Assembly (NCBI GenBank): GCA_038087875.1 | Contig: CM075988.1 | Span: 25,546,001 to 25,610,000 of the forward strand | From: Malacoraja senta | Lineage: Eukaryota | Direction of reading: 5' to 3' | Length of the DNA: 64,000 bases | Shown: piece by piece, positions 14,812-37,800 of the stretch | Layout of the letters: each line of letters opens with the position of its first letter | Numbering within the stretch: position 1 is the first letter of the stretch | Program-made: the position numbers and the translations under genes | The notes under the pieces: model-generated | Told to the model about the DNA's origin: nothing | Databases searched by the model: none | The model's input: the letters and a program-made list of their open reading frames with translations, nothing else

Positions 14812-15078
14812 TCATTCTTTTAAATTAACTGGGAATGATAATTCGTGAGAATTAAGATGAATATTTGACAGGGTAGAAGGATCTTCTAACGTATCCAAGC
14901 TGATGGCTATCTTTTCGTCCGTCCCATCAGCAATCTTCATAGCAAGAGTGTGATCTTTGGTGCATAAGAACCATCCCTGTGCCCATGCAGATTCAAACTT
15001 GTGATATTGTCCATTTAAAGACTGCTGGAAAAAGATAATGTTCATATTCCGTTTAACGTTAGCTGGAGCTTCACCTTC
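14812..15078 (-). CDS. IL18: Interleukin-18-like gene, last coding exon
   Basis: Acceptor ttgtttacag|GAA, phase 0. EGEAPANVKRNMNIIFFQQSLNGQYHKFESAWAQGWFLCTKDHTLAMK...*. Carries the IL-1 family signature F-x(n)-FES-x3-G-W/Y-FL. Compare human IL-18 EMNPPDNIK..IIFFQRS..FESSSYEGYFL. Confidence 0.9.
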   Translation of the reverse strand, partial: EGEAPANVKRNMNIIFFQQSLNGQYHKFESAWAQGWFLCTKDHTLAMKIADGTDEKIAISLDTLEDPSTLSNIHLNSHELSFPVNLKE

Positions 15079-15523
15079 CTGTAAACAAGACAATTTCTGT
15101 TTAGAATCTTGTAAGTAAGTTTATTGACCAAGTATTCACATACAAGGAATTTGCCTTGGTGCTCCACCCACAAGTAACAACAGGACATACAGTGACAGTT
15201 ACGAATGACTCAGAAAACACTAAACATTAATAATAATAAAACATTAATGATAAAACACCATTGATCAAGCATGTGAACCAACAAAATACCAGATCAAAGG
15301 GAGGCTACAGATTTTTGGCTGTTGAGTAGAGCAACTACTCGTGGATAAAAACTGTTTTTATGTCTGGCTGTGGCAGCTTTGACAGACCAATCTTGCAGAC
15401 CAAAACACATGTAGTTGCGTTTAGTTTTATTGTGTGTACCGAGGTACACTGAAAAGCTTTTGTGTGCTAACCAGTTAGCGAAAGACAATACATGATTAAC
15501 AATTGAGCCATCCAGTGTACAGT

Positions 15524-15712
15524 GTTCTTATGCACCAAAGGTCACTCTCTGGCTATGAAGATTGTTCATATAATGAACATGACATGATAATGAATGAATA
15601 AGTTTATTGGTCAAGTAGTCACATACAAGGAATTTGCCTTGGTGCTCTGCCCACAAGTGACAATGACATTCATTCATTCATGATAGCCATCAGCTTGGTT
15701 AAATTATAAGAT
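15524..15712 (+). pseudogene. Inverted, diverged fragment of the IL-18-like last exon, interrupted by a short repeat tail
   Basis: + strand reads FLCTKGHSLAMKIVHIMNMT..[insert ~15590-15680]..IAISLVKL*. The functional exon reads FLCTKDHTLAMKIADGTDEKIAISLDTLE. Confidence 0.85.
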
Positions 15713-16522
15713 TGGATAAGTTATAAGTATTCTGCCAAACATTCATAATCTCCCTGCTTTAACAACATACCATGTTTAGTGCAAGGTCAGGCCCCAATCA
15801 AGATAGTCCGAGGAGCTCCAATAAGGTAGACAGTAGCTCAAGACTGCTCTTTAGTTGTTGGTAGGATGGTTCAACAGCAACTGAACCATTCTAAAAACAA
15901 CTAGAGAGCAGTCGTGAGCTATTATTTACTATTGGAGATACTTCACTGCTTGAATGATTATCAGTTAAGGATATATTTATATATTTTACATCTGTTTGTT
16001 GAAACTGTGAAACAGGGCATTGAGGATGTGGTCAATTAAAGACTCAATAGTTTATCTGCAACAATTGGGTTGTGAAAGAGACAAATTAAAGTCAAAGACA
16101 GATACAAAAAGTTGGAGTAACTCAACGGGACAGGCAACATCTCTGAAGAAGGGTCTCGACCCGAAATGTCTCCCATTCCTTCTCTCCAGAGATGCTGCCT
16201 GTCCCGCTGAGTTACTCCAGCTTTTTGTGTCTATCTTTGGTTTAAACCACCATCTGCAGTTCCTTCTTACAAATTAAAGTCAAATCGAGTTAAGGTACAG
16301 AAATGAAAGGACACAGTAAGAAGATAACACGAAAACACACTGAGCATTTTTATATTTGTGCTGCAGGAACCCCTGTGAATGTTTCACAAAGACAGTGCGT
16401 TAATGGAAAATGTTGGGCACCTGGGTGCTTGCCATCGCCGTCCTGTGGTACAAGTTTGAACTGCAGGTCATTTTAAGGAGGAAGTCTAAACCGAAGATAC
16501 AAAAGAAAATTAATACCCAGAT

Positions 16523-17140
16523 AAGGAGCAGCACAGCGGTAGAGCTGCTGCCTCACAGGGCCTGAGACCCGTGTTTGATCCTAACTATGGGTGCTGTCTG
16601 TGCATGTTCTCCCTGTGACTGCGTGGGTTTCCTCCGGGTGCTCTGGTTTCTTCCCACATTCCAAAGATGGGCAGGTTTGTAGGTCAGTTGGCCTCTGTAA
16701 ATTGTCCCTACTGTGTAGGATGCGAAAGTGGGATAACATGGAACTAGTGTGAGGATGACCAATGGTCGACATGGATTTGTTGGGCCGAAGGGCCTGTTTC
16801 CACGCCAACTCTCTGAACTAACCTAAACCAAACTAAGTTGTTTTCACCACATTATAATTGACTAGTTGAACTTATATGACACACCAGTGAATTTTGTTGT
16901 CACAGTGAATGAAGGGACAATTTCTTTAAGGTTAAACTTCGTTGGGTTCTCCCCGTGGGTTTTCTCCGAGATCTAGTTTCCTCCCACACTCCAAAGACGT
17001 ACAGGTTAGTAGGTTAATTGGCTTGGTAAAATTGTAAATCGTTCCAAGTGTGTGTAGGATAGTGTTAATGTGCGGGGATCGCTGGTCGGTGCGGACTCAG
17101 TGCGCCGAATGGCCTGTCTCTGTGCTATATCTCTAAATTA
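16523..17140 (+). mobile_element. Two tRNA-derived V-SINE copies (HE1/MER6-like)
   Basis: A/B-box-like head (agcggtagagctgctgcc..gtttgatcc), V-domain-like gttctcccNgtg..gggtttNctccg, and a CR1-like 3' tail ending (CTAAA)n. Confidence 0.8.
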
Positions 17141-17144
17141 AGAC

Positions 17145-20100
17145 TATCTTGGGGGGAGGGACTCGAATAGGGAAAGCTAGTAGTCAGGGTGTGAGGCAGG
17201 AGGCAGAGAAGGGAAGCACTCGGACCCAAAATGTAGGGGAGAAAGAAAAAAGATAATAAACAGAGAATAAGCGGTGGTGGGTTTCTTAAATGTGTATATT
17301 TAAATGCTAGGAGCATTGTAAGAAAGGTGGATGAGCTTAAAGCCTGGATTGACACCTGGAAGTATGATGTTGTGGCGGTCAGTGAAACATGGTTGCAGGA
17401 GGACTGCGAGTGGAAACTAAATATTACAGGATTTCGTTGCTTCAGGGGTGATAGAATTGGAGGGGCAAGAGGTGGGGGTGTTGCATTGCTTGTCGAGGAA
17501 GATCTTACAGCAGTGCTTTGGCAGGATAGATTAGAGGGCTCGTCTAGGGAGGCTATTTGGGTGGAACTGAGAAATGGGAAAGGGGTAGCAACACTTATAG
17601 GGGTGTATTATAGACCATCTAATGGAGAGCGAGAATTGGAAGAGCAAATATGTAAGGAGATTGCAGATATTAGTAGTAAGCACAAGGTAGTGATTGTGGG
17701 AGATTTCAATTTTCCACACATAGACTGGGAAACACATTCTGTAAAAGGGCTGGATGGTTTGGAGTTTGTAAAATGTGTGCAGGATAGTTTTTTTCAGCAA
17801 TACATAGAGGTACCTACTAGAGAAGGGGCAGTGCTGGACCTCCTGTTAGGAAATGAGACAGGGCAGGTGGCGGAGGTAAGCGTTGGGGAGCACTTTGGGT
17901 CCAGTGATCACAATACCATTAGTTTCAATATAATTATGGAGAGGGTCAGAACTGGACCTAAGGTTGAGATTTTTGATTGGAGAAAGGCTAACTTTGAGGA
18001 GATGCGAAAGGATTTAAAAGGAGTGAATTGGGACATGTTGTTTTATGGGAAGGATGTAGAAGAGAAATGGAGGACATTTAAAGGTGAAATTTTAAGAGTA
18101 CAGAATCTTTATGTCCCTGTTCGGTTGAAAGGAAATAGTAAAAACTGGAAAGAGCCATGGTTTTCAAGGGAAATTGGACACTTGGTTCGGAAAAAGAGAG
18201 AGATCTACAATAATTATAGGCGGCATGGAGTAGATGAGGTGCTGCAGGAGCATAAAGAATGTAAAAAGAATATTAAGAAAGAAATTAGAAAAGCTAAAAG
18301 AAGATATGAGGTTGCTTTGGCAAGTAAGGTGAAAGTAAACCCAAAGGGTTTCTACAGCTATATTAATAGCAAAAGGATAACAAGGAATAAAATTGGTCCA
18401 TTAGAGAGTCAGAGTGGACAGCTATCTGCAGAGCCAAAAGAGATGGGGGAGATATTGAACAATTTCTTTTCTTCGGTATTCACGAAGGAGAAGGATATGG
18501 AATTATGTGAGGTAAGGGAAACAAGCAGAGTACCAATGGAAACTGTGAGATTCAAAGAAGAGGAAGTGTGGACACTTTTGAAAAATATGAAAACGGATAA
18601 GTCTCCAGGTCCTGACAGGATATTCCCTAGGACATTGAGGGAAGTTAGTGTAGAAATAGCAGGGGCTATAAAAGAAATATTTCAAATGTCATTAGAAACG
18701 GGAATAGTGCCGGAGGATTGGCGTACTGCGCATGTTGTTCCGTTGTTTAAAAAGGGTTCTAAGAGTAAACCTAGCAATTATAGACCTGTTAGTTTGACGT
18801 CAGTGGTGGGCAAATTAATGGAAAGGATACTTAGGGATAATATATATAAGCATCTGGATAAGCAGGGTCTGATTAGGAACAGTCAACATGGATTTGTGCC
18901 TGGAAGGTCATGTTTGACTAATCTTCTTGAATTTTTCGAAGAGGTTACTAGGGAAATTGATGAGGGTAAAGCAGTGGATGTTGTCTATATGGACTTCAGT
19001 AAGGCCTTTGACAAGGTTCCTCATGGAAGGTTGGTTAAGAAGATTCAATTGTTGGGTATTAATGGTGGAGTAGCAAGATGGATTCAACAGTGGCTGAATG
19101 GGAGATGCCAGAGAGTAATGGTGGATGGCTGTTTGTCAGGTTGGAGGCCGGTGACTAGTGGGGTGCCTCAGGGGTCTGTGTTGGGTCCACTGTTGTTTGT
19201 CATGTACATCAATGATCTGGATGATGGTGTGGAAAATTGGATTAGTATGTATGCAGATGATACTAAGATAGGTGGTGTTGTGGATAATGAAGTAGATTTT
19301 CAAAGTCTACAGAGAGATTTAGGCTATTTGGAAGAGTGGGCTGAAAGATGGCAGATGGAGTTTAATGCTGATAAATGTGAGGTGCTACATTTTGGCAGGA
19401 CAAATCAAAATAGGACGTAAATGGTAGCGAATTGAGGAATGCAGTTGAACAGAGGGATCTAGGAATAACTGTGCATAGTTCCCTGAAGGTGGAATCTCAT
19501 GTAGATAGGATGGTAAAGAAAGCTTTTGGTGTGCTGGCCTTTATAAATCCGAGCATTGAGTATAGAAGTTGGGATGTAATGTTAAAATTGTACAAGGCAT
19601 TGGTGAGGCCAATTCTGGAGTATGGAGTACAATTTTGGTCGCCTAATTATAGGAAGGATGTCAACAAAATAGAGAGAGTACAGAGGAGATTTACGAGAAT
19701 GTTGCCTGGGTTTCAGCAACTAAATTACAGAGAAAGGCTGAACAAGTTAGGTCTTTATTCTTTGGAGCGCAGAAGGTTAAGGGGGGACTTGATAGAGGTC
19801 TTTAAAATGATGAGAGGGATAGACAGAGTTGACGTGGTTAAGCTTTTCTCATTGAGAGTAGGGAAGATTCAAACAAGAGGACATGACTTGAGAATTAAGG
19901 GACAGAAGTTTAGGAGTAACATTAGGGGGAACTGCTTTACTCAGAGAGTGGTGGCTGTGTGGAATGAGCTTCCAGTGGAAGTGGTGGAGGCAGGTTAGAT
20001 TTTATCATTTAAAAATAGATTGGATGGGTATATGGATGAGAAAGGAATGGAGGGTTATGGTCTGAGTGCAGGTAGATGGGACTAGGGGAGAAAAAGTGTT

Positions 20101-20160
20101 CGGCATGGACTTGAAGGGCCGAGATGGCCTGTTTCCATGCTGTAATTGTTATATGGTTAT
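17145..20160 (+). mobile_element. CR1 LINE, 5'-truncated; nearly complete ORF2 (APE endonuclease plus RT) with late disablements
   Basis: 697-aa ORF with SETWL, GDFN, SDH, QHGF, YMDFSKAFDKV and YADD. A 7-nt deletion near 19418 relative to the 27.5-kb copy. (GGTTATAT)n tail. Confidence 0.96.
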
Positions 20161-21439
20161 ATCTTACCCCGCGAGTTTCCAGAATCACCGTGAAAAAAAG
20201 TTTACAAAAGAAAAATGATAAAGTATAGTGAACTATAATTTCCAATGCCAATTGTACAAATAAATGCGTGCAAATTAAATGCAAGAGTTGGCCAGTCTTT
20301 CTAATCTACCCTGCCATTTATATGGACAGGCACATGGAAGTGTAGTGGATAGAGTGATATGAATCATGTATGCGCAGATAAGATCAGTTTAACTTAGCAT
20401 CCTATTTAGCACCAACATTGTGATATGGGCCAAGCGCAGTCAGGTGGGACTAGTCTGGCTGGGACATGTTGGCCGGTGTGGGCAAGCTGGGCCGAGAGGA
20501 CACCCGTTTCCTTATCTCGGTTTGGTTTCCATTTAACTCGGGGTAAGGTTTCACTTCTATCTAATTGAATTTATCTATATGTTCCTGAACAATATATTCA
20601 CTTGTTTGCTTGTTGATTTCCAAGTACATATCAGGATGCAAGCTTAATCCATTAACCAGCCCATTATAAAGTACATTGCAGTCATTACTTCATGTTTTGG
20701 GTAATATTTTCTTTTTTTTGGTTTAAAATGACATTAAATCCCAATTTTCCACAACAAATAATATGCAAACCGACTGGTTGAATTTCCAGCTTGATGCTGG
20801 AGTAAAACCAAGTTAGTGCATTTGGGTTTGCGCAGCACAGCAAGAGGCCCTTCGGCCCACAATGTTGGTGCTGAACACACTGCCAAGTTAAACTGATCTT
20901 ATCTGCCCCTCTATTTCCTTCACTTCCATGTGCCTGTCCATGAGCCTCTTAATCACCAATCTGGTATCTGCCTCCACCACCACCTCTGGCAGTGCGTTTC
21001 AAACCCCCACACAAAAATTGTCCCTCACATCTCCAATAAACCTTTCCCCTCTCACCTTCTGTCTGCGCCCTTTAGTGTTGGGCATTACAACCCTTGGGGA
21101 GGGGGAGGGGGGGGGGAAGGTTGCGACTGTCTACCCTATCTTTGCCTCTTTTCATTTTATATACATCTATCAAGTCTTCTCTCTTCCTCTGATAATCCAG
21201 AGAAATCAATCCAAGTCCATCCAACCTCTGTCTCATCAAGCAGCCGTCTGGTACACCTCCTCCGATAGTTGCATCATGCCTTCCCAACTCTTGTGCTCAA
21301 TGCCCCTTGCAATGATACCCTGTGCTTCGTTTACCACCCTACCCACTTGTGCTGCACCTTCGGTGAGCTATGAATTTGAACTTCAAGATACCTCTAGGCA
21401 ACAATGCTACCAATGCTACGTAGAGTCGGTATGTCAAGG

Positions 21440-23960
21440 AGGACTCTCTCTAACGTCTACAGGTGCACAGTAGAGAGCATGCTGTGGCTTGGTTCGGCAA
21501 CTTGAGTGCCCTGGAGAGGAAAAAGACTACAAAAAGTAGTAAACACTGCCCAGTCCATCATCGGCTCTGACCTCCCTTCCATCGAGGGGATCTATCGCAG
21601 TCGCTGCCTCAAAAAGGCTGGCAGTATCATCAAGGACCCACACCATCCTGGCCACACACTCATCTCCCTACTACCTTCAGGTAGAAGGTACAGGAGCCTG
21701 AAGACTGCAACGACCAGGTTCAGGAATAGCTACTTCCCCACAGCCATCAGGCTATTAAACTTGGCTCGGACAAAACACTGAACATTAATAGCCCATTATC
21801 AGTTTATTTGCACTTTGAACTCCTGAAAAATAATCTTGTCAAATACCAGGAAGCAGTAAAATCTGCAAGAACTAAATATTTTTCCACCCTTATCTCCAAA
21901 AACGTGCAAAATTGCAAGGTCCTCTTTAGCACCATCACCTCCATCATCTGTCCTGCCACCAGCACCAGCCTAACTGGGTCCCCTGCTAAGTGCAAGGAAT
22001 TTACCACATTTTTCACCAGCAAGGTAAAGAATATAAGAACGAATATTTCCCCTCCCACCCGTGACCTGGCTGTCTCATTGGTCTGCTCTTCAAAATTAGA
22101 CAGTTTCCAACCCGTTACTCTACCCTCCCTTGTAAAACTGATCACCACCATGAAACCTACTACCTGCCCCCTCGACACTGTCCCCTCTGCCCTCCTAAAG
22201 GACGTCATTACAACAGCTGGTCCCAGCATCCTCGCCATCTTCAACAGCTCTCTGACCACTGGCACTGTACCGACCTGCTTCAAGCATGCGGTGGTCCAAC
22301 CACTCCTGAAAAGACCTAACCTCGACCCCACCTTGCCAAGCAACTACAGACCCATTTCTAAACTGCCTTCCCTCTCAAAAGCCCTTGAAAAGGTAATTTT
22401 AAGTCAACTTATACCTTACCTTCACCAAAACACTATCTTGGAAACTTTCCAATCAGGTTTCAGGACTCACCATAGCACAGAGTCTGCCTTGTTGAAGGTA
22501 CACAATGACCTACTGCTCACCGTTGACTCCGGCGTCTGTGCAATCCTGCTCCTTCTTGACCTCAGCGCAGCATTTGATACTGTCGACCACACCATCCTAA
22601 TTGACCGTCTCCTGTACGGGGTTGGTATTGATGGCACTGCCCTGAGCTGGTTCATCTCCTACCTCAAAGGTAGGAGTTTCTCGACTAACATAGGCAACTC
22701 ATTCTCCTCCCCAGCTAATCTCTGCTGTGGGGTTCCACAAGGTTCCATCCTTGGCCCCATTATCTTCTCCCTGTATATGTTCCCCTTAGGCCAAGTCATT
22801 AAAAGGCACAGCATTTCCTTCCATTGCTACGCAGACGATACACAACTCCATCTCCCCCTGAAGCCCCAAAACCAATCAAATCTGTTTAACCTTACCCACT
22901 GCCTCAAGGATATAAAGTGTTGGATGGCCCAGAACTTCCTCCAACTAAACGAGAGTAAGTCTGAGGTCATCCTTCTCGGCCCCTCGGACTCAATCAAAAT
23001 GATAGCAGGCAGCCTTGGAAGCCTTACCCCACTACTCAAACCCCACGTCAAAAACCTTGGCGTGATATTTGACTCAGCACTGAAATTTGACAAACAAGTC
23101 AATGCCGTGGTAAAAGCTAGCTTCTTTCAGCTTCGGACGATAGCTAAAATAAAACAATTCCTCCAGTTTGATGACCTCGAAAAGATCATCCACACATTCA
23201 TCTCCTCCCGCCTAGATTACTGCAACTCCCTTCACACTGGCATCAGCCAATCTTCCCTGTCCCGCCTGCAACTGGTCCAAAACGCCGTAGCGAGACTCCT
23301 GACGGGCACCCGAAAAAGGGACCACATCACCCCGATCCTGGCCTCTCTCCACTGGCTCCCTGTGCGGTTCCGTATAAACTTCAAGATCCTCCTCCATGTC
23401 TACAAAGCCCTCAATGGGCTTGCCCCCACCTACATAAAAAGTCTTCTTACCCATCACTCCACCTCCAGGCCCCTCAGATCGGCCGACTTGGGGTTGCTGA
23501 ATATCCCACGGTCTAGGCATAAGCTCAGGGGCGACCGCTCCTTTGCGGTTGCAGCCCCTAGACTGTGGAACAGCATCCCCTTTCCCATCAGAACTGCCCC
23601 CTCCATCGACTCTTTTAAGTCAAGACTAAAGACTTATCTATACTCCCAAGCCTTTCCTGACGTCCTCTGAGTGAGGGCTACATGTACATATGTATGTAGT
23701 TTGTTTTGTTGTGCTATTCTTATAACAAATGTAAAGCACTTTGGCCAACGAGAGTTGTTTTTTAAATGTGCTATATAAATAAATGTGACTTGACTTGACT
23801 TTTTTCGTTTTATTTATTCATGTGTGTATATATTTATAATCATGGTATATGGACACACTGATCTATTCTGTAGTCAATGCCTTCTATATTCTGTTGTGCT
23901 GAAGCAAAGCAAGAATTTCATTGTCCTATCTGGGACACATGACAATAAACATCTTGAATC
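21440..23960 (+). mobile_element. Rex1/Babar-like LINE 3' end, split by the L2 insertion
   Basis: [31 protein letters not shown], near-identical to the C-terminus of the 40421-41659 element. The 3' UTR resumes after about 23781. Confidence 0.8.
21803..23780 (+). mobile_element. Young L2-clade LINE, 5'-truncated, with an uninterrupted 620-codon ORF2 segment
   Basis: ORF 21808-23670 with all RT motifs. L2 3' tail gtaaagcactttggccaacgagagttg..(TTGAC)n. Confidence 0.95.
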
Positions 23961-24201
23961 TAACGTATTTAGTTGTGTAACCTCCAATCTAAGGAGGATT
24001 GTAATTCTGTACTCTAGTGCATTCTTTCCCCAGTATTAGTGGCTGTTTATTCAGCTGCCTGGGCCCAATGCCCTTGGAAATGAATTTATCTACTGCCTGT
24101 TTTGATGGTATCGAATTTTCTTTGATAATATTACTTTGCAGTACCAATGAAATGAAGGACATTTTATTGTATAAAGTCTGCTAAATGCAGTTTGGAATTA
24201 C

Positions 24202-24359
24202 CTTAAACATCAAGATCTGTCTGCTTCCTTCCATAGTGCAACACAAGTGATAGTCCAACCCGTTAACTTTAATCTGGAACACGACCGGGATCCCAATGGG
24301 CGTCTTACGTTTTACGTTGATTTTGTACCATTTAATGTTGAATTCTACGCCGTCTTTAT
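24202..24359 (-). CDS. IL18: Interleukin-18-like gene, penultimate coding exon (not in the ORF track)
   Basis: ttttcaacag|AT...TTTAAG|gtaatt. (D)KDGVEFNIKWYKINVKRKTPIGIPVVFQIKVNGLDYHLCCTMEGSRQILMFK. 158 nt, phase 1 to 0. Has the same FK|E junction as human IL-18. Confidence 0.88.
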
Positions 24360-24679
24360 CTGTTGAAAATGAGCATAATAGGTGCTAGAATTATTTAAAG
24401 TCACAAAGGTACAGACACAGCTTTATAATTTAGAACATATGATTGTTGTCATTCTTTTATTTCCCCAAATTTATGGCAATTAAACTGCTGTTCTGTTTTC
24501 TAAAGCTCCATCGCCTTCTGGCCCAGCTGCATGTTTAAGCTCCGTGTACCTATCCAATCTCCCTTTGAAGGCACTGATTTCACTTGCACCATCCTTACAG
24601 TCAATAAATCGGAGGTTGGAACCATTCTCTACATGAACCATTCTCTACATTCTCATCTATATAATCATCTATTATCAGG

Positions 24680-24906
24680 GTGACACAGTGGCGCAGCGGT
24701 AGTGTTGCTGCCTTACAACGCCAGAGACCCGGGATCGATCCGGACTTTCCAAAGGTGCTGTCTGTACGGAGTTTGTACGTTCTCCCCGTGGCTTTTCTCC
24801 AGGATCTCCGGTGTGGGATAGTGTTAATGTGCAGGGATCGCTGGTCGGCGTAGACTCGATGGGGCGAAGGGCCTGTTTTTGTGCTGTATCTCTAAACCAA
24901 GCTAAA
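24680..24906 (+). mobile_element. V-SINE (HE1/MER6-like), internally deleted
   Basis: Head gtggcgcagcggtag..gggatcgatcc and tail gaagggcctgttt..ctaaa. Confidence 0.8.
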
Positions 24907-25387
24907 CCTGTAGACATTCGAAAAGAGCATTCGTTGGCATAGAGTCACCTCAGTCATCTCAGAAAGTAGAGGCGTTGATGAGCTTTCTTTGTGACAGATC
25001 TTTTGAGACGTGCATGCCCAGGACTTGAGGCTGTAGCCTCTCTCCATTCCATTCCCAGTGTAGACGGGTTCACCATCCCTCGGCACGCTCTTCCTGCTCT
25101 GAGCAGAGGGAAGTTCCTCTCCAGAATGACGCACTTGCTGTTTCATTACTGTGCAGCTGTGCAAGAGTCACAATGCAGGCCGTTGTCATCAATGCACACT
25201 CACAGATAGACTTTGACAACCCAACAAGGCTCTGCTGAGATCCATAGTCAGGGCGACTCTCTCAATACCCGCGGCTTAGGATATAATGTTTAGGAGCTGC
25301 TCCTTCCCGGGTCGACCAAGCTCGCGGCCGATAGCCCCTGGGTCTGTGGAGCCCGTGGCTGGCGCCTGGCTTTGCACCATGGAGGCA

Positions 25388-26599: not shown

Positions 26600-26749
26600 C
26601 TGCTTTTGACCTTGGGACTGGTCGCTGCGCAAAGGCGGTCGTAAGGTCTTGTGTTCCATCGGCATACACCCGGAGAATTTCATGGTTGATATTTCTGATC
26701 ATCCTAAAGCGATCACTTTGGTCGTAGATCTTAAAATCACTTTCGTCCA
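26600..26749 (-). CDS. IL18: Interleukin-18-like gene, exon with the predicted caspase site and start of the mature domain
   Basis: ctctcctcacaag|TG...GCAG|gtttgt. xDESDFKIYDQSDRFRMIRNINHEILRVYADGTQDLTTAFAQRPVPRSKA. 150 nt, phase 1 to 1. Aligns with human [24 protein letters not shown]. Confidence 0.88.
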
Positions 26750-26884
26750 CTTGTGAGGAGAGACAAAAGGCCCGGCATTAGTTCAGCTCCAGCCGGAAAA
26801 CATTTTGTAAACTGGAGAACATTTCCTTAACCGTACGAGTAAGGATATTATCACTAACCATTAGGTTTTACCAAGGTATCTTTC

Positions 26885-27335: not shown

Positions 27336-27465
27336 TAATTATTTCTCGAAACTCTCCAGATAAAGGCTAGGACTGGATTGCCTGCACTCTCTTTAGGTCC
27401 CATGTGGAGTATTGTGTTCTGTTTTGGACACCCTCCAAAAGGAAGGATGTTGTCCAGTTCTAAAG

Positions 27466-30400
27466 TTGCAGGAGGAGGAGCAGCGTCCGGGTAAGGAGTA
27501 GTTAAACAGCGCGGGGCTTTGCTTTCCAGACGCTCAGGGACCGTTGCAGGAGGAGGAACCAAAACTGCAACGTTCCATTCAGGTTTCCTATGTGAGGAAG
27601 CAGCTGATTGGGAGTCAGATCCCTGCAGATTTCCTCCACCAGTTTGTATTGTATCCAGGGTAAGGGGGGAGAATGAGGGCCAGGGCAGTTTACTGTTCTG
27701 GATGTCAGATGTGGGAGGTCATGGAGTCCGATACCCCTCCAGACGTCCACATCTGTGTCAGGTGCGTAGAGATGGGGTTCCTAAGGGATCGTGTTAGGAA
27801 CCTGGAGCAGCAGCTCGATGACCTCTGTCTGCTCAGGGAGAGTGAGGAGGTCATAGAAAGGAGTTATAGGGAGGTGGTCACTCCAAGACCACGGGAGGCA
27901 GACAAGTGGGTCACAGTTAGGAAGGGCAAGGGGCAGAGGCAGGGACTAGCGAGTACCCCAGTGGCTGTACACCTAGAAAATAAGTACTCCTGTTTGAGTA
28001 CTGTTGCGGGGGACAGCCTTTCTGGGGGTAGCGACAGCGGCCGGGCCTCCGGCACAGAGACCGTGCTATTACTCAGAAGGGTAGGGAAAAGACGAGGAGG
28101 GCAATAGTAATAGGGGACTCTATGGTTAGGGGGTCGGATAGGCGATTCTGTGGACGCAGTCAGGAGACCCGGATGGTAGTTTGCCTCCCTGGTGCCAGGG
28201 TCAGGGATGTGTCTGAACGTGTCCAAGATATCCTGAAATCGGAGGGAGAGGAGCCTGAGGTTGTGGTACATATAGGTACCAATGACATAGGCAGAAAAAG
28301 AGAAGAGGTCCTGAAAGGAGAATTTAGGGAGTTGGCAGGAGAGTTAAAGAGAACGTCCGCAAAGGTAACAATCTCAGGATTACTACCTGTGCCACGCGAC
28401 AGTGAGAGCAGGAACGAAATGAGGTGGAGGATAAATGCGTGGCTGAAGGACTGGTGCAGCGAGCAGGGATTCAAATTTCTGGATCATTGGGACCTCTTTT
28501 GGGGAAGGTGTGACCTGTACAGAAAGGACGGGTTGCACTTGAACCTGAGGGGAACCAATATCCTGGCAGGGAGATTTGCAAAGGCTACTGGGGAGACTTT
28601 AAACTAGAACGGTTGGGGGGAGGGACTCAAATAGAGAAAGATGGTAGAAAATGTGGGAGGCAGGAGGCAGAGAAGGGAAGCACTCGGACCCAAAATGTAG
28701 GGGAGAAAGAAGAAAAAGATAATAAACAGAGAATAAGTGGTGGTGGGTTTCTTAAATGTGTATATTTTAATGCTAGGAGCATTGTAAGAAAGGTGGATGA
28801 GCTTAGAGTCTGGATTGATACCTGGAAGTATGATGTTGTGGCGATCAGTGAAACATGGTTGTAGGAGGGCTGTGATTGGAAACTAAATATTCCAGGATTT
28901 CGTTGCTTCAGGGGTGATAGAATTGGAGGGGCAAGAGGTGGGGGTGTTGCATTGCTTGTCAAGGAAGATATTACAGCAGTGCTTTGGCAGGATAGATTAG
29001 AGGGCTATTTCTAATCCCTAGAGGTCTAGGGAGGCTATTTGGGTGGAGCTGAGAAATGGGAAAGGTGTAGCAACACTTATAGGGGTGTATTATAGACCGC
29101 CAAATGGGGAGCGAGAATTGGAAGAGCAAATATGTAAGGAGATAGCAGATATTAGTAGTAAGCACAAGGTAGTGATTGTGGGAGATTTCAATTTTCCACA
29201 CATAGACTGGGAAACACATTCTGTAAAAGGGCTGGATGGTTTGGAGTTTGTAAAATGTGTGCAGGATAGTTTTTTGCAGCAATACATAGAGGTGCCTACT
29301 AGAGAAGGGGCAGTGCTGGACCTCCTGTTAGGAAATGAGACCGGGCAGGTGGCGGAGGTAAGCGTTGGGGAGCACTTTGGGTCCAGTGATCACAATACCA
29401 TTAGTTTCAATATAATTATGGAGAGGGTGAGAACTGGACCTAGGGTTGAGATTTTTGTTTGGAGAAAGGCTAACTTTGAGGAGATGCGAAAGGATTTAAA
29501 AGGAGTGAATTGGGACATGTTGTTTTATGGGAAGGAGGTAGAAGAGAAATGGAGGACATTTAAAGGTGAAATTTTAAGAGTACAGAATCTTTATGTACCT
29601 GTTCGGTTGAAAGGAAATAGTAAAAATTGGAAAGAGCCATGGTTTTCAAGGGAAATTGGACACTTGGTTCGGAAAAAGAGGGAGATCTACAATAATTATA
29701 GGCAGCATGGAGTAAATGAGGTGCTTGAGGAGTATAAAGAATGTAAAAAGAATATTAAGAAAGAAATTAGAAAAGCTAAAAGAAGATACGAGGTTGCTTT
29801 GACAAGTAAGGTGAAAGTAAATCCAAAGGGTTTCTACAGCTATATTAATAGCAAAAGGATAACAAAGGAATAAAATTGGTCCATTAGAGAGTCAGAGTGG
29901 ACAGCTATCTGCAGAGCCAAAAGAGATGGGGGAGATACTGAACAATTTCTTTTCTTCGGTATTCACCAAGGAGAAGGATATGGAATTATGTGAGGTAAGG
30001 GGAAACAAGCAGAGTAGCTATGGAAACTATGAGATTCAAAGAAGAGGAGGTGCGGACACTTTTGAAAAAGATGAAAACGGATAAGTCTCCAGGTCCAGAC
30101 AGGATATTCCCGAGGACATTGAGGGAAGTTAGTGTAGAAATAGCAGGGGCTATGACAGAAATATTTCAAATGTCATTAGAAACGGGAATAGTGCCGGAGG
30201 ATTGGCGTACTGCGCATGTTGTTCCGTTGTTTAAAAGGGTTCTAAGAGTAAACCTAGCAATTATAGACCTGTTAGTTTGGACATCAGTGGTGGGCAAATT
30301 AATGGAAAGGATACTTAAAGATAATATATATACGCATCTGGATAAGCAGGGTCTGATTAGGAACAGTCAACATGGATTTGTGCCTGGAAGGTCATGTTTG

Positions 30401-31621
30401 ACTAATCTTCTGGAATTTTTCAAAGAGGTTACTAGGGAAATTGATGAGGATAAAGCAGTGGATGTTGTCTATATGGACTTCAGTAAGGTCTTTGACAAGG
30501 TTCCTCATGGAAGGTTGGTTAAGAAGATTCAATTGTTGGGTATTAATGGTGGAGTAGCAAGATGGATTCAACAGTGGCTGAATGGAGATGCCAGAGAGTA
30601 ATGGTGGATGGCTGTTTGTCAGGTTGGAGGCCGGTGACTAGTGGGGTGCCTCAGGGGTCTGTGTTGGGTCCACTGTTGTTTGTCATGTACATCAATGATC
30701 TGGATGATGGTGTGGAAAATTAGATTAGTAAGTATGCAGATGATACTAAGATAGGTGGTGTGGTGGATAATGAAGTCGATTTTCAAAGTCTACATAGAGA
30801 TTTAGGCCATTTGGAAGAGTGGGCTGAAAGATGGCAGATGGAGTTTAATGCTGATAAATGTGAGGTGCTACATCTCGGCAGGACAAATCAAAATAGGACG
30901 TACATGGTAAATGGTAGAGAATTGAGGAATGCAGTTGAACAGAGGGATCTAGGAATAACTGTGCATAGTTCCCTGAAGGTGGAATCTCATGTAGATAGGG
31001 TGGTAAAGAAAGCTTTTGGGGTGCTGGCCTTTATAAATCAGAGCATTGAATATAGAAGTTGGGATGTAATGTTAAAATTGTACAAGGCATTGGTGAGGCC
31101 AATTCTAGTATGGAGTACAATTTTGGTCGCCTAATTATAGGAAGGATGTCAACAAAATAGAGAGAGTACAGAGCAGATTTACTAGAATGTTGCCTGGGTT
31201 TCAGCAACTAAGTTACAGAGAAAGGTTGAACAAGTTAGGTCTTTATTCTTTGGAGCGCAGAAGGTTAAGAGGGACTTGATAGAGGTCTTTAAAATTATGA
31301 GCGGGTTAGACAGAGTTGACATGGATAAGCTTTTTCCATTGAGAGTAGGGAAGATTCAAACAAGGGGATATGACTTGAGAATTAAGGGACAGAAGTTTAG
31401 GGGTAACATTAGGGGGAACTTCTTTACTCAGAGAGTGGTGGCTGTGTGGAATGAGCTTCCAGTGGAAGTGGTGGAGGCTGGTTTGATTTTATCCTTTAAA
31501 AATAGATTGGATGGGTATATGGACGGGAAAGGAATGGAGGGTTATGGTCTGAGTGCAGGTAGATGGGACTAGGGGGAAGTATTTATTAAAAAAATAATAA
31601 TAATAAAATAAAAAAAATAAA

Positions 31622-31652
<31 letters not shown>

Positions 31653-31713
31653 TTCGGCACGGACTTGAAGGGCCGAGATGGCCTGTTTCCGTGCTGTAAT
31701 GGTTATATGGTTA
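27466..31713 (+). mobile_element. Apparently full-length CR1 LINE (5'UTR, zinc-finger/esterase ORF1, ORF2, 3'UTR), disabled and nested in an older CR1
   Basis: ORF1 has CSGC..CVRC, IGDSMVRG, VHIGTND and DGLHL. ORF2 fragments span 28613-31572. Short direct repeat TAAAG at 27461-27465 and 31714-31718. The host CR1 sequence continues across the insertion. Confidence 0.93.
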
Positions 31714-31919
31714 TAAAGAATGCAGAGACGATTTACTGGGATGTTGCCGGGACATGAGGTCCTGAACTACAGGGAGAGGTTGAGCAAGCCATGACTTCAC
31801 TCCATGGAGCACAGAATGATGAAGGGCAATCTCGTAAACATGCACAACGGGAATAGATAGGATGAATGCTCAAAGTCTATTACCCAAAATACGGGAATCA
31901 AGACCAGTAACACGTAAAA

Positions 31920-32603
31920 TGGACAAGGGAGAGAGAGCCAGTGGATGTAGTGCACCTGGACTTTCAGAAAGCCTTTGATAAGGTTCCACACAGGAGATTA
32001 GTGGGCAAAATTAGAGCACATGGTATTGGGGATTGGGTTTGACATGGATAGAAAATTGGTTGGCAGACAGGAAACAAAGAGTAGGGATTAACGGGTCCCT
32101 TTCAGAATAGCAGGCAGTGACTAGTTGGGTGCGGCAAGGCTCGGTGCTGGGACCGCAGCTTGTATTCACTGGAATTTAGAATGATGAGAGGGGATATAAT
32201 AGAAATATATAAAATTATTAATGGATTGATTATTAAGTGCTTTCAAGAGAGAGCTAGATTGGGCTCTTAAAAATAGTGGAGTCAGGGGATATGGGGAGAA
32301 GGCAGGAACGGGGTACTGATTGGGGATGATCAGCCATGATCACATTGAATGGCGATGCTGGCTCGAGGGGCCGAATGGCCTACTTCTGCACCGATTGTCT
32401 ATGTATTACTGTCTAAATTACTCTCTAATGGCATCAAGTTGGGAAAAGGGGAAGTACAATGGGATTTGGGGGTCCTTGTTCATCAGTCTGGGGAGAAGAC
32501 AGGAACAGGGTACTGATTGGGGATGATCAGCCATGATCACATTGAATGGCGGTGCTGGCTCGAAGGGCCGAATGGCCTACTCCTGCACCTATTGTCTATT
32601 GTC
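31920..32603 (+). mobile_element. Rearranged CR1 fragments with two 3' ends
   Basis: LDFQKAFDKVPH motif and repeated gatgatcagccatgatcacattgaatggcg tails. Confidence 0.8.
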
Positions 32604-32682
32604 CATCGCGTAGCGGCACATAATGGTTAGGCCACTCCTCCTATGCAAACCCTCGACAACCCTGGGAAAGAGTCACGAGAGT

Positions 32683-34786
32683 CTCTGTCTCTGTCTCTGT
32701 CTCTGTCTCTGTCTCTGTCTCTGTCTCTGTCTCTGTCTCTGTCTCTGTCTCTGTCTCTGTCTCTGTCTCTGTCTCTGTCTCTGTCTCTGTCTCTGTCTCT
32801 GTCTCTGTCTCTGTCTCTGTCTCTGTCTCTGTCTCTGTCTCTGTCTCTGTCTCTGTCTCTGTCTCTGTCTCTGTCTCTGTCTCTGTCTCTGTCTCTGTCT
32901 CTGTCTCTGTCTCTGTCTCTGTCTCTGTCTCTGTCTCTGTCTCTGTCTCTGTCTCTGTCTCTGTCTCTGTCTCTGTCTCTGTCTCTGTCTCTGTCTCTGT
33001 CTCTGTCTCTGTCTCTGTCTCTGTCTCTGTCTCTGTCTCTGTCTCTGTCTCTGTCTCTGTCTCTGTCTCTGTCTCTGTCTCTGTCTCTGTCTCTGTCTCT
33101 GTCTCTGTCTCTGTCTCTGTCTCTGTCTCTGTCTCTGTCTCTGTCTCTGTCTCTGTCTCTGTCTCTGTCTCTGTCTCTGTCTCTGTCTCTGTCTCTGTCT
33201 CTGTCTCTGTCTCTGTCTCTGTCTCTGTCTCTGTCTCTGTCTCTGTCTCTGTCTCTGTCTCTGTCTCTGTCTCTGTCTCTGTCTCTGTCTCTGTCTCTGT
33301 CTCTGTCTCTGTCTCTGTCTCTGTCTCTGTCTCTGTCTCTGTCTCTGTCTCTGTCTCTGTCTCTGTCTCTGTCTCTGTCTCTGTCTCTGTCTCTGTCTCT
33401 GTCTCTGTCTCTGTCTCTGTCTCTGTCTCTGTCTCTGTCTCTGTCTCTGTCTCTGTCTCTGTCTCTGTCTCTGTCTCTGTCTCTGTCTCTGTCTCTGTCT
33501 CTGTCTCTGTCTCTGTCTCTGTCTCTGTCTCTGTCTCTGTCTCTGTCTCTGTCTCTGTCTCTGTCTCTGTCTCTGTCTCTGTCTCTGTCTCTGTCTCTGT
33601 CTCTGTCTCTGTCTCTGTCTCTGTCTCTGTCTCTGTCTCTGTCTCTGTCTCTGTCTCTGTCTCTGTCTCTGTCTCTGTCTCTGTCTCTGTCTCTGTCTCT
33701 GTCTCTGTCTCTGTCTCTGTCTCTGTCTCTGTCTCTGTCTCTGTCTCTGTCTCTGTCTCTGTCTCTGTCTCTGTCTCTGTCTCTGTCTCTGTCTCTGTCT
33801 CTGTCTCTGTCTCTGTCTCTGTCTCTGTCTCTGTCTCTGTCTCTGTCTCTGTCTCTGTCTCTGTCTCTGTCTCTGTCTCTGTCTCTGTCTCTGTCTCTGT
33901 CTCTGTCTCTGTCTCTGTCTCTGTCTCTGTCTCTGTCTCTGTCTCTGTCTCTGTCTCTGTCTCTGTCTCTGTCTCTGTCTCTGTCTCTGTCTCTGTCTCT
34001 GTCTCTGTCTCTGTCTCTGTCTCTGTCTCTGTCTCTGTCTCTGTCTCTGTCTCTGTCTCTGTCTCTGTCTCTGTCTCTGTCTCTGTCTCTGTCTCTGTCT
34101 CTGTCTCTGTCTCTGTCTCTGTCTCTGTCTCTGTCTCTGTCTCTGTCTCTGTCTCTGTCTCTGTCTCTGTCTCTGTCTCTGTCTCTGTCTCTGTCTCTGT
34201 CTCTGTCTCTGTCTCTGTCTCTGTCTCTGTCTCTGTCTCTGTCTCTGTCTCTGTCTCTGTCTCTGTCTCTGTCTCTGTCTCTGTCTCTGTCTCTGTCTCT
34301 GTCTCTGTCTCTGTCTCTGTCTCTGTCTCTGTCTCTGTCTCTGTCTCTGTCTCTGTCTCTGTCTCTGTCTCTGTCTCTGTCTCTGTCTCTGTCTCTGTCT
34401 CTGTCTCTGTCTCTGTCTCTGTCTCTGTCTCTGTCTCTGTCTCTGTCTCTGTCTCTGTCTCTGTCTCTGTCTCTGTCTCTGTCTCTGTCTCTGTCTCTGT
34501 CTCTGTCTCTGTCTCTGTCTCTGTCTCTGTCTCTGTCTCTGTCTCTGTCTCTGTCTCTGTCTCTGTCTCTGTCTCTGTCTCTGTCTCTGTCTCTGTCTCT
34601 GTCTCTGTCTCTGTCTCTGTCTCTGTCTCTGTCTCTGTCTCTGTCTCTGTCTCTGTCTCTGTCTCTGTCTCTGTCTCTGTCTCTGTCTCTGTCTCTGTCT
34701 CTGTCTCTGTCTCTGTCTCTGTCTCTGTCTCCTGTCTCTGTCTCTGTCTCTGTCTCTGTCTCTGTCTCTGTCTCTGTCTCTGTCTC
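32683..34786 (+). repeat. (CTCTGT)n microsatellite, about 2.1 kb, nearly perfect
   Basis: Direct reading. One extra C near 34731. Flanked by TCACGAGAGT on both sides. Confidence 0.98.
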
Positions 34787-34828
34787 TCACGAGAGTGTCC
34801 TGCCACCGCAGCAGGAGCTCAACTGAGC

Positions 34829-35028
34829 NNNNNNNNNNNNNNNNNNNNNNNNNNNNNNNNNNNNNNNNNNNNNNNNNNNNNNNNNNNNNNNNNNNNNNNN
34901 NNNNNNNNNNNNNNNNNNNNNNNNNNNNNNNNNNNNNNNNNNNNNNNNNNNNNNNNNNNNNNNNNNNNNNNNNNNNNNNNNNNNNNNNNNNNNNNNNNNN
35001 NNNNNNNNNNNNNNNNNNNNNNNNNNNN
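34829..35028. other. Assembly gap (200 N)
   Basis: Run of N. The round length suggests a scaffolding gap of unknown true size. Confidence 0.99.
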
Positions 35029-35750
35029 AGCGAAGGAAATAGGCAACATTTCGGGGCGAAACCCTTCTTCAGACTGATGCAGGGTGGAGAAGAAGAAAGG
35101 AAGAGGAGGAGCCAGAGGGCTGAGGGAGAGCTGAGAAGGGGAGGAGACAGCAAGGGCTACCGGAAATTGGAGAAGTCAATGTTCGGGCCACCGGGATGCA
35201 GAAATATGAGGTGCTGCTCCTCCAATTTCCAGTGGTGCTCACTCTGGCCATGGAGGAGGCTCAGGACAGAAAGGTCGGATTCGGAATGGGAGGGGAGTTG
35301 AAGTGCTGAGCCACCGGGAGATCTCTACTGGCCGTCACATACAACAAGTGATCCTCCGTCAGTTTCGCCACCTCCAACGTGACCCCACCACTCGCCACAT
35401 CTTCCCATCTCCCCACCTGTCTGGCTTCTGCAAAGACCGCTCCCTCCGTAACTCCCTGGTCAATTCTTCCCTTCCCTCCCGCACCACCCCCTCCCCGGGC
35501 ACTTTCCCTTGCAACTGCAAGAGATGCAACACTTGTCGCTTTACCTCCCCCCTCGATTCCATTCAAGGACCCAAGCAGTCGTTCCAGGTGCGACAGAGGT
35601 TCACCTGCATCCCCTCCAACCTCATCTATTGCATCCGCTGCTCTAGATGTCAGCTGATCTACATCGGTGAGACCAAGCGGAGGCTTGGCGATCGTTTCGC
35701 CGAACACCTCCGCTCGGTTCGCATTAAGCAACCTGATCTCCCTGTGGCTC
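35029..35750. mobile_element. Penelope-like element fragments in inverted arrangement (- about 35029-35325, + about 35325-35750)
   Basis: The + part encodes CNCKRCNTC..FTC..NLIYCIRCSRCQLIYIGETKRRLGDRFAEH (GIY-YIG). The - part matches the 6565-6900 pseudo-LTR. Confidence 0.9.
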
Positions 35751-35987
35751 AGACAGGAAGCAAGCCATTCGACAAACTTTAGCTGACGTGGTCAGGTCTC
35801 CCAGATTTATTTGTGGAATGATCACTGTAGATTAGATTGTCGACGTTTTTATAAAAATGGAGTATGCCTGCTCTGTTGTGGATTGTTGAGGGGGATTGTG
35901 AGCCAAAATTTCTACCAGGAACTCACACCTTCGCTCACTTTCAGCTTATTTGTTCACAGCGATTAGATAATGCAAAATTGTCCATGG

Positions 35988-36240
35988 GTCAAGTCAAGTC
36001 AAGTCACTTTTATTTCTATAGCACATTTAAAAAACAACTCTGGTTGACCAAAGTGCTTCACATTGGTGGAGGTACTAACGTTATACAACAGTGGTTCATA
36101 GATTAAGTACATACATAAATACAGACATATAGCCCTCCCCTCAGAGGACGTCAAGAAAGGCTTGAGAGTAAAGATGAGTTTTATGTCTCGACTTAAAAGA
36201 GTCGATGGAGGGGGGCAGTTCTGATGGAAAGAGGGATGCT
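35988..36240 (-). mobile_element. L2 3' fragment; a sister copy lies on + at about 37392-37594
   Basis: (TTGAC)n tail and the L2 3' stem-loop. Same family as 21803-23780. Confidence 0.85.
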
Positions 36241-36355
36241 GTTGCATAAAGAGCTTTTGCATAAAGTTGAACAGTCCTAGACTAGCATAGACTTGATGGG
36301 CCAAATGGCCCACTTGTGCGCTGTTAGGATCCGGCAGGATTCCATTGTAATTTAC

Positions 36356-36447
36356 TTAATTGAGAATCTTTGCAGTTGACTGCAGATCCCGGGATAAATT
36401 TTTGGAATGTCACTAACTCCAATTGTGTGGCATCAACAGCTATGTTT
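36356..36447 (-). CDS. Candidate IL-18-like pro-peptide exon
   Basis: tccttcgatatccag|A...TTAA|gtaaat. NIAVDATQLELVTFQKFIPGSAVNCKDSQL, no stops. 92 nt, phase 2 to 1, which fits the 26749 acceptor. LVTFQKFI loosely resembles human pro-IL-18 NFVAMKFI. Lies across the assembly gap. Confidence 0.55.
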
Positions 36448-37789
36448 CTGGATATCGAAGGACCAATGAATCATTCCATTCAATGCATTTGGCTGGCAGC
36501 TTTCCAACGGGAGATAATTAATCAGTATTTGTACATATCCATCTCACACTAAATAACGCTGCAATTAGACAGTCTAGTCATTGCTTTCCCCCATTATATA
36601 GAGGGCAAGGAGTTGCATTCCTTGACGCTGTATTGGTAGACAAAGGGGCAACTTGGCTGGCTACTAGCACCTTCATCTTTGAATCTAAGTTGAGAGTTCC
36701 AGTCTCTCTTCGGAGTCTCGGACGCATTGGAGTGCGTGCACATTCCAACCAGTGAAAGATTTACAGTTACTATTGTAATGTAGGAAATGTAGCAGTTAAT
36801 TAATGCACAGGAACATGGAGCAATGACACACAACTTGTTCGAAAGTTAGTCCGGCCCGCTCCAAAGAGTCGGTACACAAGAGGGTTTTTTAAGCAGGTAT
36901 AAAAGATTCTGCCGTGTTATTTTGAAGGAGGCAGGAGAGATATGCCTGGCGTCCTTGCAAAGATTTGTCCCCCTATTTACACCACGAAAGTGTCATTGCT
37001 ATATGTTGCTGTGTATGAATTAGCTGCTACATTTCCTACGTTATAATGCTAACTGTAAATCGTTCACTGGCTGGAATGCGCTTTAGGTCTAAATGAGATC
37101 ACGGTGATTGATGAATGTGGTTGCTTTCTGGGTGAAATATGTGGAATAATATTTGGAAATGGAAGAGAAGAGATGGAGTTGAGGGAACTGCAGCAACTGG
37201 GCAAGTGTCCGTCTACCAGTTGGCATGGCAACAGTTGGAACGGTTTGGATACCAGGATCTGATCATTAAAGTAGTTCACGTTCTCAGGAGATTCCGATCC
37301 TCAGCCCTACCCCCCCCACACACACACCCCCCCTACCCCCCCACCCCCCCATGCAGTCAGCGAGGAATCGAGTAGAAGCTTGCCCTTGCAACCGAGACTT
37401 AAAACTCATCTTTACTCTCAAGCCTTTCTTGACGTCCTCTGAGGGAGGGCTATATATGTATGTATTTATGTATGTACTTAATCTATGAACCACTGTTGTA
37501 TAACGTTAGTATCTCCACCAATGTAAAGCACTTTGGTCAACGAGAGTTGATTTTTAAATGTGCTATAGAAATAAAAGTGACTTGACTTGACTTGAATATC
37601 TGCAAATTATTTTTCTCTCTGCTTGTGAGTGGGCGTTGAATAACAACAGGTGTAGAGTAAAGCCTGGCCTGAGAACGTCCAAGTCCTGTGTGAACATTGC
37701 CAATCATGCACCCGCTCAGAAACTGGAACCACTGCGGGCGGCTCTGCCTGCGTGGCTCAGATTACTAGCCTGCTCCTCACTTCACTTAC

Positions 37790-37800
37790 TGCTCTTCCAT
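37790..37800 (-). CDS. Candidate IL-18-like start-codon exon (coding part ATG GAA GAG CA)
   Basis: Strong Kozak context gcagtcATGG and a perfect GTAAGT donor. Phase 2 fits the 36447 acceptor, giving MEEQ. Confidence 0.4.

What the first reader, a model, noticed from the sequence alone, without database searches (positions are those of the whole stretch)
14812..37800. Divergent IL-18-like cytokine gene reconstructed exon by exon, tail-to-tail with ARCN1
Seen: three minus-strand exons with canonical GT-AG sites and phases 1-1-0 splice into one frame. One of them (24202-24359) is absent from the ORF track. With the two candidate upstream exons the protein is 225 aa: MEEQNIAVDATQLELVTFQKFIPGSAVNCKDSQLMDESD|FKIYDQSDRFRMIRNINHEIL...ILMFK|EGEAPANVK..IIFFQ..FESAWAQGWFL... 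It has no signal peptide. Known: these motifs and intron positions match vertebrate IL-18 (ESD|, IRN.N, FK|E, IIFFQ, FES..G.FL). Human IL18 neighbours TEX12/BCO2/SDHD and is not directly next to ARCN1, although both are on 11q23. Inference: this may be a lineage-specific IL-18 paralogue, or an ancestral linkage, in a cartilaginous fish.
Basis: partly seen in the sequence, partly recalled or inferred. Interest (0 to 1): 0.8.

Follow-up and report, generated by a model that had tools for sequence, protein, structure and literature searches.

The report
Skate interleukin-18 gene beside ARCN1
This is a skate's copy of an interleukin-18 immune-signal gene already annotated in other skates, rays and sharks; its front end is unresolved, and it is likely switched on by a caspase cut, possibly by cell-death caspases rather than the usual inflammatory one.

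Summary
Five minus-strand segments splice into a stop-free 225-codon frame, tail-to-tail with ARCN1. Exons 3-5 are IL-18 family: Pfam IL1; a relatives' profile matches human IL-18 at E 3e-20 against 2e-8 for IL-1beta; the thorny skate orthologue folds as an IL-18-type beta-trefoil. The gene is not new. RefSeq has skate orthologues at 75-79% identity, two named 'interleukin-18-like'. It sits in one clade with ray, shark and elephant shark IL-18 (97/94 support), so it is not skate-specific. Elephant shark has two further IL-18-like genes and zebra shark one. Exons 1-2 are unproven: annotated skate orthologues start differently, and no RNA run covered the exons. New details: the putative cut site is DxxD in 5 of 7 batoids, a caspase-3/7-type motif. 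A likely stop-loss adds a 24-residue tail; an inverted partial copy of exon 5 in intron 4 has TAA at that codon. Synteny in other genomes could not be tested.

The parts
37790..37800 (-). Candidate first coding exon (11 nt from ATG); unproven
   Evidence: Donor in top 2.5% and frame-compatible, but one of 11 distinct upstream donors that pass the same test (14 ATG-donor pairs); it is the nearest. No homology or RNA support.
36356..36447 (-). Candidate exon 2 (pro-piece); probably part of a real exon, limits and start codon uncertain
   Evidence: Acceptor and donor in top 6%. 36371-36330, in this frame and across the proposed donor, is the top codon-level match of 127,434 positions to the N-termini of three annotated skate orthologues (score 90, next 89, mean 59; BLOSUM rank 33 of 127,912). 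Tied 4th-5th of 37,250 upstream minus positions for a shark N-terminal profile; HMMER form E about 18, not significant.
26600..26749 (-). Exon 3: putative caspase site DESD then first trefoil strands
   Evidence: HMM E 2e-7; 71-73% identical to skate orthologues
24202..24359 (-). Exon 4: middle of the beta-trefoil, ends at the phase-0 FK|E junction
   Evidence: HMM E 1.5e-16; donor in top 0.4%
14812..15078 (-). Exon 5: C-terminal trefoil strands plus a 24-residue tail
   Evidence: Pfam PF00340 E 7.6e-9, above cut-off; best PDB sequence hits are IL-18; 92% to Amblyraja over 73% of the exon
14815..14886 (-). 24-codon C-terminal extension, likely from stop-loss (TAA to GAA)
   Evidence: Skate and ray orthologues end at this position; the inverted copy has TAA at this codon; 0 differences in DNA run X24
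15524..15750 (+). Inverted, interrupted partial copy of exon 5 inside intron 4 (15524-15564 and 15680 to about 15750, split by a repeat fragment)
   Evidence: 41 nt at 93% (E 4e-11) and 31 nt at 87%; reads FLCTKGHSLAMKIV and MIAISLVKL then stop; predicted to pair with exon 5 in pre-mRNA
1063..10129 (+). 3' part of ARCN1 (coatomer delta), convergent neighbour
   Evidence: Pfam Adap_comp_sub on frames at 3701, 8108 and 8735; delta-COP PDB matches

Best explanation
This is the skate orthologue of a chondrichthyan interleukin-18 gene, and it likely encodes a leaderless precursor that a caspase would cut after DESD to free a beta-trefoil cytokine predicted to signal through IL-18 receptor alpha and beta. 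Shown: exons 3-5, IL-18 family membership, orthology to the annotated skate, ray, shark and chimaera genes, the fold of the thorny skate orthologue, and the convergent position beside ARCN1. Inferred: cytosolic synthesis; cleavage after Asp39 (numbering of the 225-aa model); a charge switch from pI 5.9 to 8.4 on cleavage; non-classical release; receptor use. The P4 residue is Asp, not the Leu of human LESD, so caspase-3/7 are at least as likely as caspase-1 to be the activators.
For: Pfam IL1. Profile of 8 chondrichthyan relatives: human IL-18 E 3e-20, best IL-1beta 2e-8. AlphaFold model of Amblyraja XP_032905632.1 (79% identical): pLDDT 81.8; Foldseek top hits human IL-18, E 6e-10, IL-1beta 6e-6; VIA Z 23.0, rmsd 1.7 A over 148 residues, against 18.2 for IL-33 and 17.5 for IL-1beta, with the alignment starting at the Asp of the putative cut site and covering mature IL-18 1-156. 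Tree of 30 rows: skates 100/100, elasmobranchs 98/98, plus elephant shark IL-18 97/94. DxxD before the trefoil in 5 of 7 batoids including the window, and a P1 Asp in 7 of 7 sharks. Tongue sole IL-18 is activated by caspase-3/7 at DNID and gains positive charge on cleavage (PMC12953802, passages). IL18RAP is listed for elephant shark (PMC5861070 supplement).
Against: No spliced RNA evidence was obtained. The window's own protein was not folded whole; the fold is that of a 79% identical orthologue. The N-terminus disagrees with three annotated skate orthologues: the position matching their ATG reads AAA here and no GT lies where their exon would end. The two stingray orthologues and the elephant shark protein have no Asp at the cut position. 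No IL-1beta, IL-33 or teleost IL-18 rows were in the tree, so it is unrooted. Receptor-contact residues were not mapped.
Confidence: 0.7

Rival explanations
1. A recent skate-lineage duplicate moved beside ARCN1, with the true orthologue elsewhere next to the other IL-18 paralogues or BCO2/SDHD.
For: Long skate stem branch (0.62). Elephant shark's three genes share one 8.5 Mb scaffold and near-consecutive accessions, yet this 64 kb window holds only one. An inverted exon-5 fragment shows local duplication happened here.
Against: Three homologue searches and one exhaustive HMMER search of 50% cluster representatives gave one gene of this lineage per named species, none showing a second skate copy; the word-based searches are insensitive, so this is moderate evidence. 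The gene tree follows the species tree.
Confidence: 0.1
2. The gene is decaying in this species: start region and stop codon are damaged and no functional cytokine is made.
For: The orthologues' start position reads AAA and their implied donor is absent; stop-loss with a 24-residue tail; introns filled with LINEs.
Against: No stop or frameshift in exons 3-5; canonical splice sites; end branch 0.18 is close to the 0.13-0.15 path to Leucoraja and Amblyraja from the shared node; an in-frame ATG is available at the exon 2/3 junction or in candidate exon 1.
Confidence: 0.1
3. The protein is made but does not act as an IL-18R agonist; it is an antagonist, or an IL-33-like alarmin released without processing, while another paralogue does the classical job.
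For: Chondrichthyans have at least two other IL-18-like genes, one with an LESD motif like human's (P0013). Annotated batoid orthologues have only 9-19 residues before the trefoil and stingrays lack the Asp. Identity to human IL-18 is about 25%.
Against: Sequence and fold are clearly closer to IL-18 than to IL-33, IL-1Ra or IL-36Ra. The P1 Asp is kept in all 7 sharks and 5 of 7 batoids.
Confidence: 0.1

Closest known systems
RefSeq 'interleukin-18-like' of Amblyraja radiata (XP_032905632.1) and Leucoraja erinacea (XP_055516531.1); Rhinoraja LOC144608764 (XP_078282970.1)
   Same: 79%, 79% and 75% identical over exons 3-5; one clade at 100/100; DxxD before the trefoil
   Different: They are 179-181 aa, start with another 15-residue N-terminus and stop 24 residues earlier
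Callorhinchus milii interleukin-18 (XP_007910303.1 / XP_042199824.1)
   Same: Same lineage, 97/94 support; 41% identity over 114 aligned residues. Probably gene 103191153, the single C. milii IL18 used by Rivers-Auty 2018 (the gene-to-protein link is inferred from name and numbering)
   Different: No Asp at the cut position; shares a scaffold with two more IL-18-like genes
Human IL-18 (PDB 3WO2, 4XFS)
   Same: Beta-trefoil, rmsd 1.7 A over 148 residues for the orthologue model; IRN, FKE, IIFFQ and FES motifs align
   Different: About 25% identity; LESD versus DESD; recalled neighbours TEX12/BCO2/SDHD are not seen in the window; no 12-nt micro-exon found here
Tongue sole IL-18 (PMC12953802)
   Same: Non-LxxD cut region with a DxxD motif; pI rises on cleavage
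   Different: Cleavage and receptor binding were shown by experiment there; nothing is shown here
IL-1anc / nIL-1F (PMC13736523, PMC7144542)
   Same: Leaderless IL-1 trefoil cytokine present in skates
   Different: [quoted passage not shown]

Membership tests
IL-18 | IL-1/18 domain | tested here: met
   Pfam PF00340, 35.7 bits against cut-off 25 for exon 5 alone; 48 bits for full skate orthologues
IL-18 | Beta-trefoil closest to IL-18 among IL-1 superfamily folds | tested here: met
   On the 79% identical Amblyraja orthologue: Z 23.0, rmsd 1.7 A, 148 aligned to IL-18; 18.2 IL-33; 17.5 IL-1beta; Foldseek agrees
IL-18 | Sequence closer to IL-18 than to IL-1beta, IL-37, IL-1alpha, IL-36 | tested here: met
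   Profile search of PDB: E 3e-20 versus 2e-8 and weaker; exon 5 alone ranks IL-18 first
IL-18 | Groups inside a rooted IL-18 clade | tested here: inconclusive
   Groups with proteins named IL-18, but no IL-1beta or IL-33 outgroup and no teleost rows were available
IL-18 | No signal peptide | tested here: met
   Hydropathy only: best 11-residue mean 1.17 in the N-terminal 45 aa, best 19-residue mean 0.93 overall; depends on the unproven N-terminus
IL-18 | Asp at the pro/mature boundary | tested here: met
   DESD sits at the start of the region aligned to mature IL-18; cleavage itself untested
Mammalian IL-18 | LxxD caspase-1/4 tetrapeptide | tested here: not met
   P4 is Asp. PMC12953802 states LxxD is not kept in non-mammalian IL-18, so this does not bar family membership
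IL-18 | Six exons, five introns, with a short second coding exon | tested here: inconclusive
   Phases 1, 1, 0 for the last three introns agree with the recalled human pattern. The six-exon rule is from PMC4929537 and the short exon from PMC7144542. Only two weak 30-nt micro-exon candidates were found
IL-18 | Synteny with SDHD/BCO2/TEX12 | not testable with these tools
   No genome held; a Pfam scan of 139 selected frames found only ARCN1 and repeat-type domains besides weak hits
IL-18 | Signals through IL-18R alpha/beta and induces IFN-gamma | not testable with these tools
   Needs skate receptors and a cell assay
IL-1anc / nIL-1F | N-terminal PDZ domain | tested here: not met
   Only IL1 found by Pfam in the skate orthologues; at most 39 residues precede the trefoil

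The most novel reading that the evidence does not exclude
Cartilaginous fishes keep up to three IL-18 lineages that split before chimaeras and sharks parted, and the lineage next to ARCN1 has been rewired in batoids: pro-piece cut short and the activation site changed to DxxD, making an IL-18 released by apoptotic caspase-3/7 rather than the inflammasome (and needing no cut at all in stingrays). In this skate it also carries a new 24-residue tail and an intronic inverted repeat that could gate splicing of its last exon.
Probability: 0.2. Interest if true: 0.62.

Novelty: new member of a known kind. Interest (0 to 1): 0.3.

Why it matters
As a gene it is ordinary: orthologues are annotated in at least 14 chondrichthyan species. 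Its value is in what the comparison shows. A 2016 review calls fish IL-18 a single gene (PMC4929537) and a 2018 phylogeny lists one elephant shark IL18, yet databases hold three in elephant shark, two in zebra shark and two in coelacanth. A chimaera-only triplication is rejected, narrowly (AU p 0.033). I found no paper on this in ten full-text searches of an open-access library. If the batoid DxxD site is cut by caspase-3/7, skates offer a natural test of how IL-18 activation moved between inflammatory and apoptotic caspases.

Tried and rejected
RNA support: one run search listed no holder on record as RNA. Four runs were laid. The two possible RNA runs (X3, X15) had zero depth in the three exon bins and had been picked up through repeats; X1 was probably DNA. 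This says nothing for or against expression. Own-genome search: none held. Protein-level search for the orthologues' first 14 residues found nothing convincing; only the codon-level search pointed to 36371. HMMER with four shark N-termini did not single out exon 2 (E about 18). Micro-exon search: two weak candidates, not adopted. Folding exon 5 alone gave pLDDT 55.8, tail 43-49, uninformative without an alignment. P0004 (2,774 aa) is a bacterial Cna B repeat protein, a spurious hit; it was left out. Five two-domain IL-18-like proteins (P0008, P0014, P0016, P0018, P0019) and redundant isoforms were left out of the tree. Stegostoma LOC132206153 plus Callorhinchus LOC103191156 as one clade: neither shown nor rejected (p 0.43). 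Literature: 10 searches gave no paper on an IL18-ARCN1 link or on chondrichthyan IL-18 paralogues, judged from listings. My recollection that PMC6238376 covered IL-18 was wrong (0 occurrences). The elephant shark genome supplement held gave 0 hits. The synteny figure of PMC5861070 is not visible and its text and supplements do not name the neighbours. Earlier scan findings: none in three look-ups.
Full report
Observation. Joined through GT-AG introns of phase 2, 1, 1 and 0 they give 225 codons without a stop. All eight splice sites rank in the top 6% of GT or AG sites on that strand by a simple matrix. An HMM from 64 IL-18 relatives picks out exactly three of 2,527 stop-free frames in the window, exons 5, 4 and 3 (E 3e-22, 1.5e-16, 2e-7; next 6.6). 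ARCN1 lies on the plus strand and ends at 10129 (delta-COP matches), 4.7 kb from the cytokine's stop, so tail-to-tail is correct. A DNA run matches the three exon regions without differences, though it may be the source sample.

Family. Exon 5 passes the Pfam IL1 cut-off and ranks IL-18 first in the PDB. A profile of eight chondrichthyan relatives matches human IL-18 at E 3e-20 and IL-1beta at 2e-8. I folded the Amblyraja orthologue with a 19-row alignment (pLDDT 81.8), not the window's joined protein. Its best matches are human IL-18 by Foldseek and by VIA-align (Z 23.0, rmsd 1.7 A, 148 residues; IL-33 18.2, IL-1beta 17.5). It lacks the PDZ domain of IL-1anc/nIL-1F (family described in PMC13736523, passages and supplement rows seen).

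Relatives. RefSeq already has near orthologues: Amblyraja XP_032905632.1 and Leucoraja XP_055516531.1, both 'interleukin-18-like', and Rhinoraja XP_078282970.1, 75-79% identical over exons 3-5. The window is therefore from a skate, but not one of these three. Further orthologues come from sawfish, two stingrays, seven sharks and the elephant shark. In a 30-row tree the window groups with skates (100/100), then all elasmobranch copies (98/98), then the elephant shark protein named interleukin-18 (97/94). The single elephant shark IL18 used by Rivers-Auty 2018 is gene 103191153 (supplement row), which I infer is this same lineage from name and accession numbering.

Paralogues. That is not the case either. 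Holding the three chimaera genes together is rejected narrowly (AU p 0.033), so at least one duplication likely predates the chimaera-shark split. All 18 chondrichthyan rows form one side of a branch (92/91, not starred). The tree is unrooted, has three long branches and has no teleost or IL-1beta rows. Zou and Secombes 2016 describe fish IL-18 as a single gene (passages). Ten full-text searches gave no paper on these paralogues or on an IL18-ARCN1 link; the library lacks most subscription journals, and figures are not visible.

Synteny. It could not be tested: no genome is held. Within the window no other protein-coding gene was found upstream in a Pfam scan of 139 selected stop-free frames, apart from repeat-type domains; short exons would be missed. 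Lumpfish IL-18 lies near SDHD (PMC7144542, passages). The human TEX12/BCO2/SDHD neighbourhood and ARCN1's place on 11q23 are recalled, not from a call.

N-terminus. The three annotated skate orthologues have 19 residues before the trefoil and a different start. Their first 14 residues match the window best at 36371-36330, the top of 127,434 positions by codon distance (90, next 89; BLOSUM rank 33 of 127,912). This suggests the 36.4 kb segment is a real exon whose limits differ between skates. In the window the position of their ATG reads AAA and no GT lies where their exon would end. Exon 2 also resembles the long shark N-terminus weakly (tied 4th-5th of 37,250; HMMER not significant). Exon 1 has only a good donor and frame; 11 upstream donors pass the same test. 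If exon 1 is not coding, the first in-frame ATG is formed at the exon 2/3 junction, giving 191 aa. No RNA evidence was obtained.

Mechanism. IL-18 is made without a leader and is activated by caspase cleavage; human caspase-1/4 cut LESD36 and the tetrapeptide governs processing (PMC11158830, passages). Here the motif is DESD. DxxD occurs in 5 of 7 batoids (four skates and sawfish) and 0 of 7 sharks, which all keep the P1 Asp; two stingrays and the chimaera have no Asp there. In tongue sole, caspase-3/7 activate IL-18 at DNID49, caspase-1 and -6 at nearby sites, and cleavage raises the pI from 5.75 to 6.65-8.11 (PMC12953802, passages and section 20). The window's model goes from pI 5.89 to 8.42. 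I therefore infer a cytosolic precursor cut after DESD, by caspase-3/7 or caspase-1, released non-classically and acting on IL-18R alpha/beta. None of these steps is shown. The short batoid N-termini may partly reflect incomplete automatic gene models.

C-terminus and inverted copy. Skate and ray orthologues end where the window reads on for 24 more codons. Intron 4 holds an inverted partial copy of exon 5, at 15524-15564 (93%) and from 15680, split by a repeat fragment. The copy has TAA where the gene has GAA, and it keeps three residues seen in Rhinoraja but not in the window's gene. This supports an old duplication and a later stop-loss in the live exon. In the pre-mRNA the copy is predicted to pair with exon 5 (37 of 41 and 19 of 31 expected pairs; duplex -58 and -37 kcal/mol). 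No shuffle control was run, and no effect on splicing is shown.

Verdict. A real gene, correctly spotted and correctly assigned to IL-18, but already annotated in close relatives: a new member of a known kind. What remains of interest is the apparently undescribed set of chondrichthyan IL-18 paralogues, the batoid DxxD site and the untested ARCN1 linkage. Interest 0.3. Other papers opened and not relied on: PMC4275594 (passages), PMC6238376 (term search), PMC3964593 (supplement search).

Noticed in passing
window 15524-15564 and 15680-15750 (+): Inverted, repeat-interrupted copy of exon 5 within intron 4; has a stop codon where the live exon reads on and could form a hairpin with exon 5 in the pre-mRNA.
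   Followed up: partly
window 32640-34800 and 34829-35028: About 2.1 kb of a six-base microsatellite followed by a 200-base assembly gap, inside the intron between candidate exon 2 and exon 3; a small exon could be hidden in the gap.
   Followed up: no
window 42048-43300 (-): Tc1/mariner-like transposon remnant (DDE_3 E 2.5e-21), next to a 73-base-type tandem array at about 43500-44750.
   Followed up: no
window 12311-13895, 17237-20000, 21730-23670, 28000-31570: Long LINE reverse-transcriptase frames fill the intergenic space and introns, some several hundred codons open; class assigned from recall.
   Followed up: no
P0008, P0014, P0016, P0018, P0019: Proteins of 313-376 aa with two IL-18-like domains in tandem; P0008 has two Pfam IL1 stretches and no name on record. 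Source organisms unknown.
   Followed up: partly
P0009 and P0011: Coelacanth has two very different IL-18 genes on the same 32.2 Mb sequence.
   Followed up: partly
P0005 and P0030: Stingray orthologues as annotated have only 9 residues before the trefoil and no Asp at the cut position, so they may need no caspase, or the models lack a 5' exon.
   Followed up: partly
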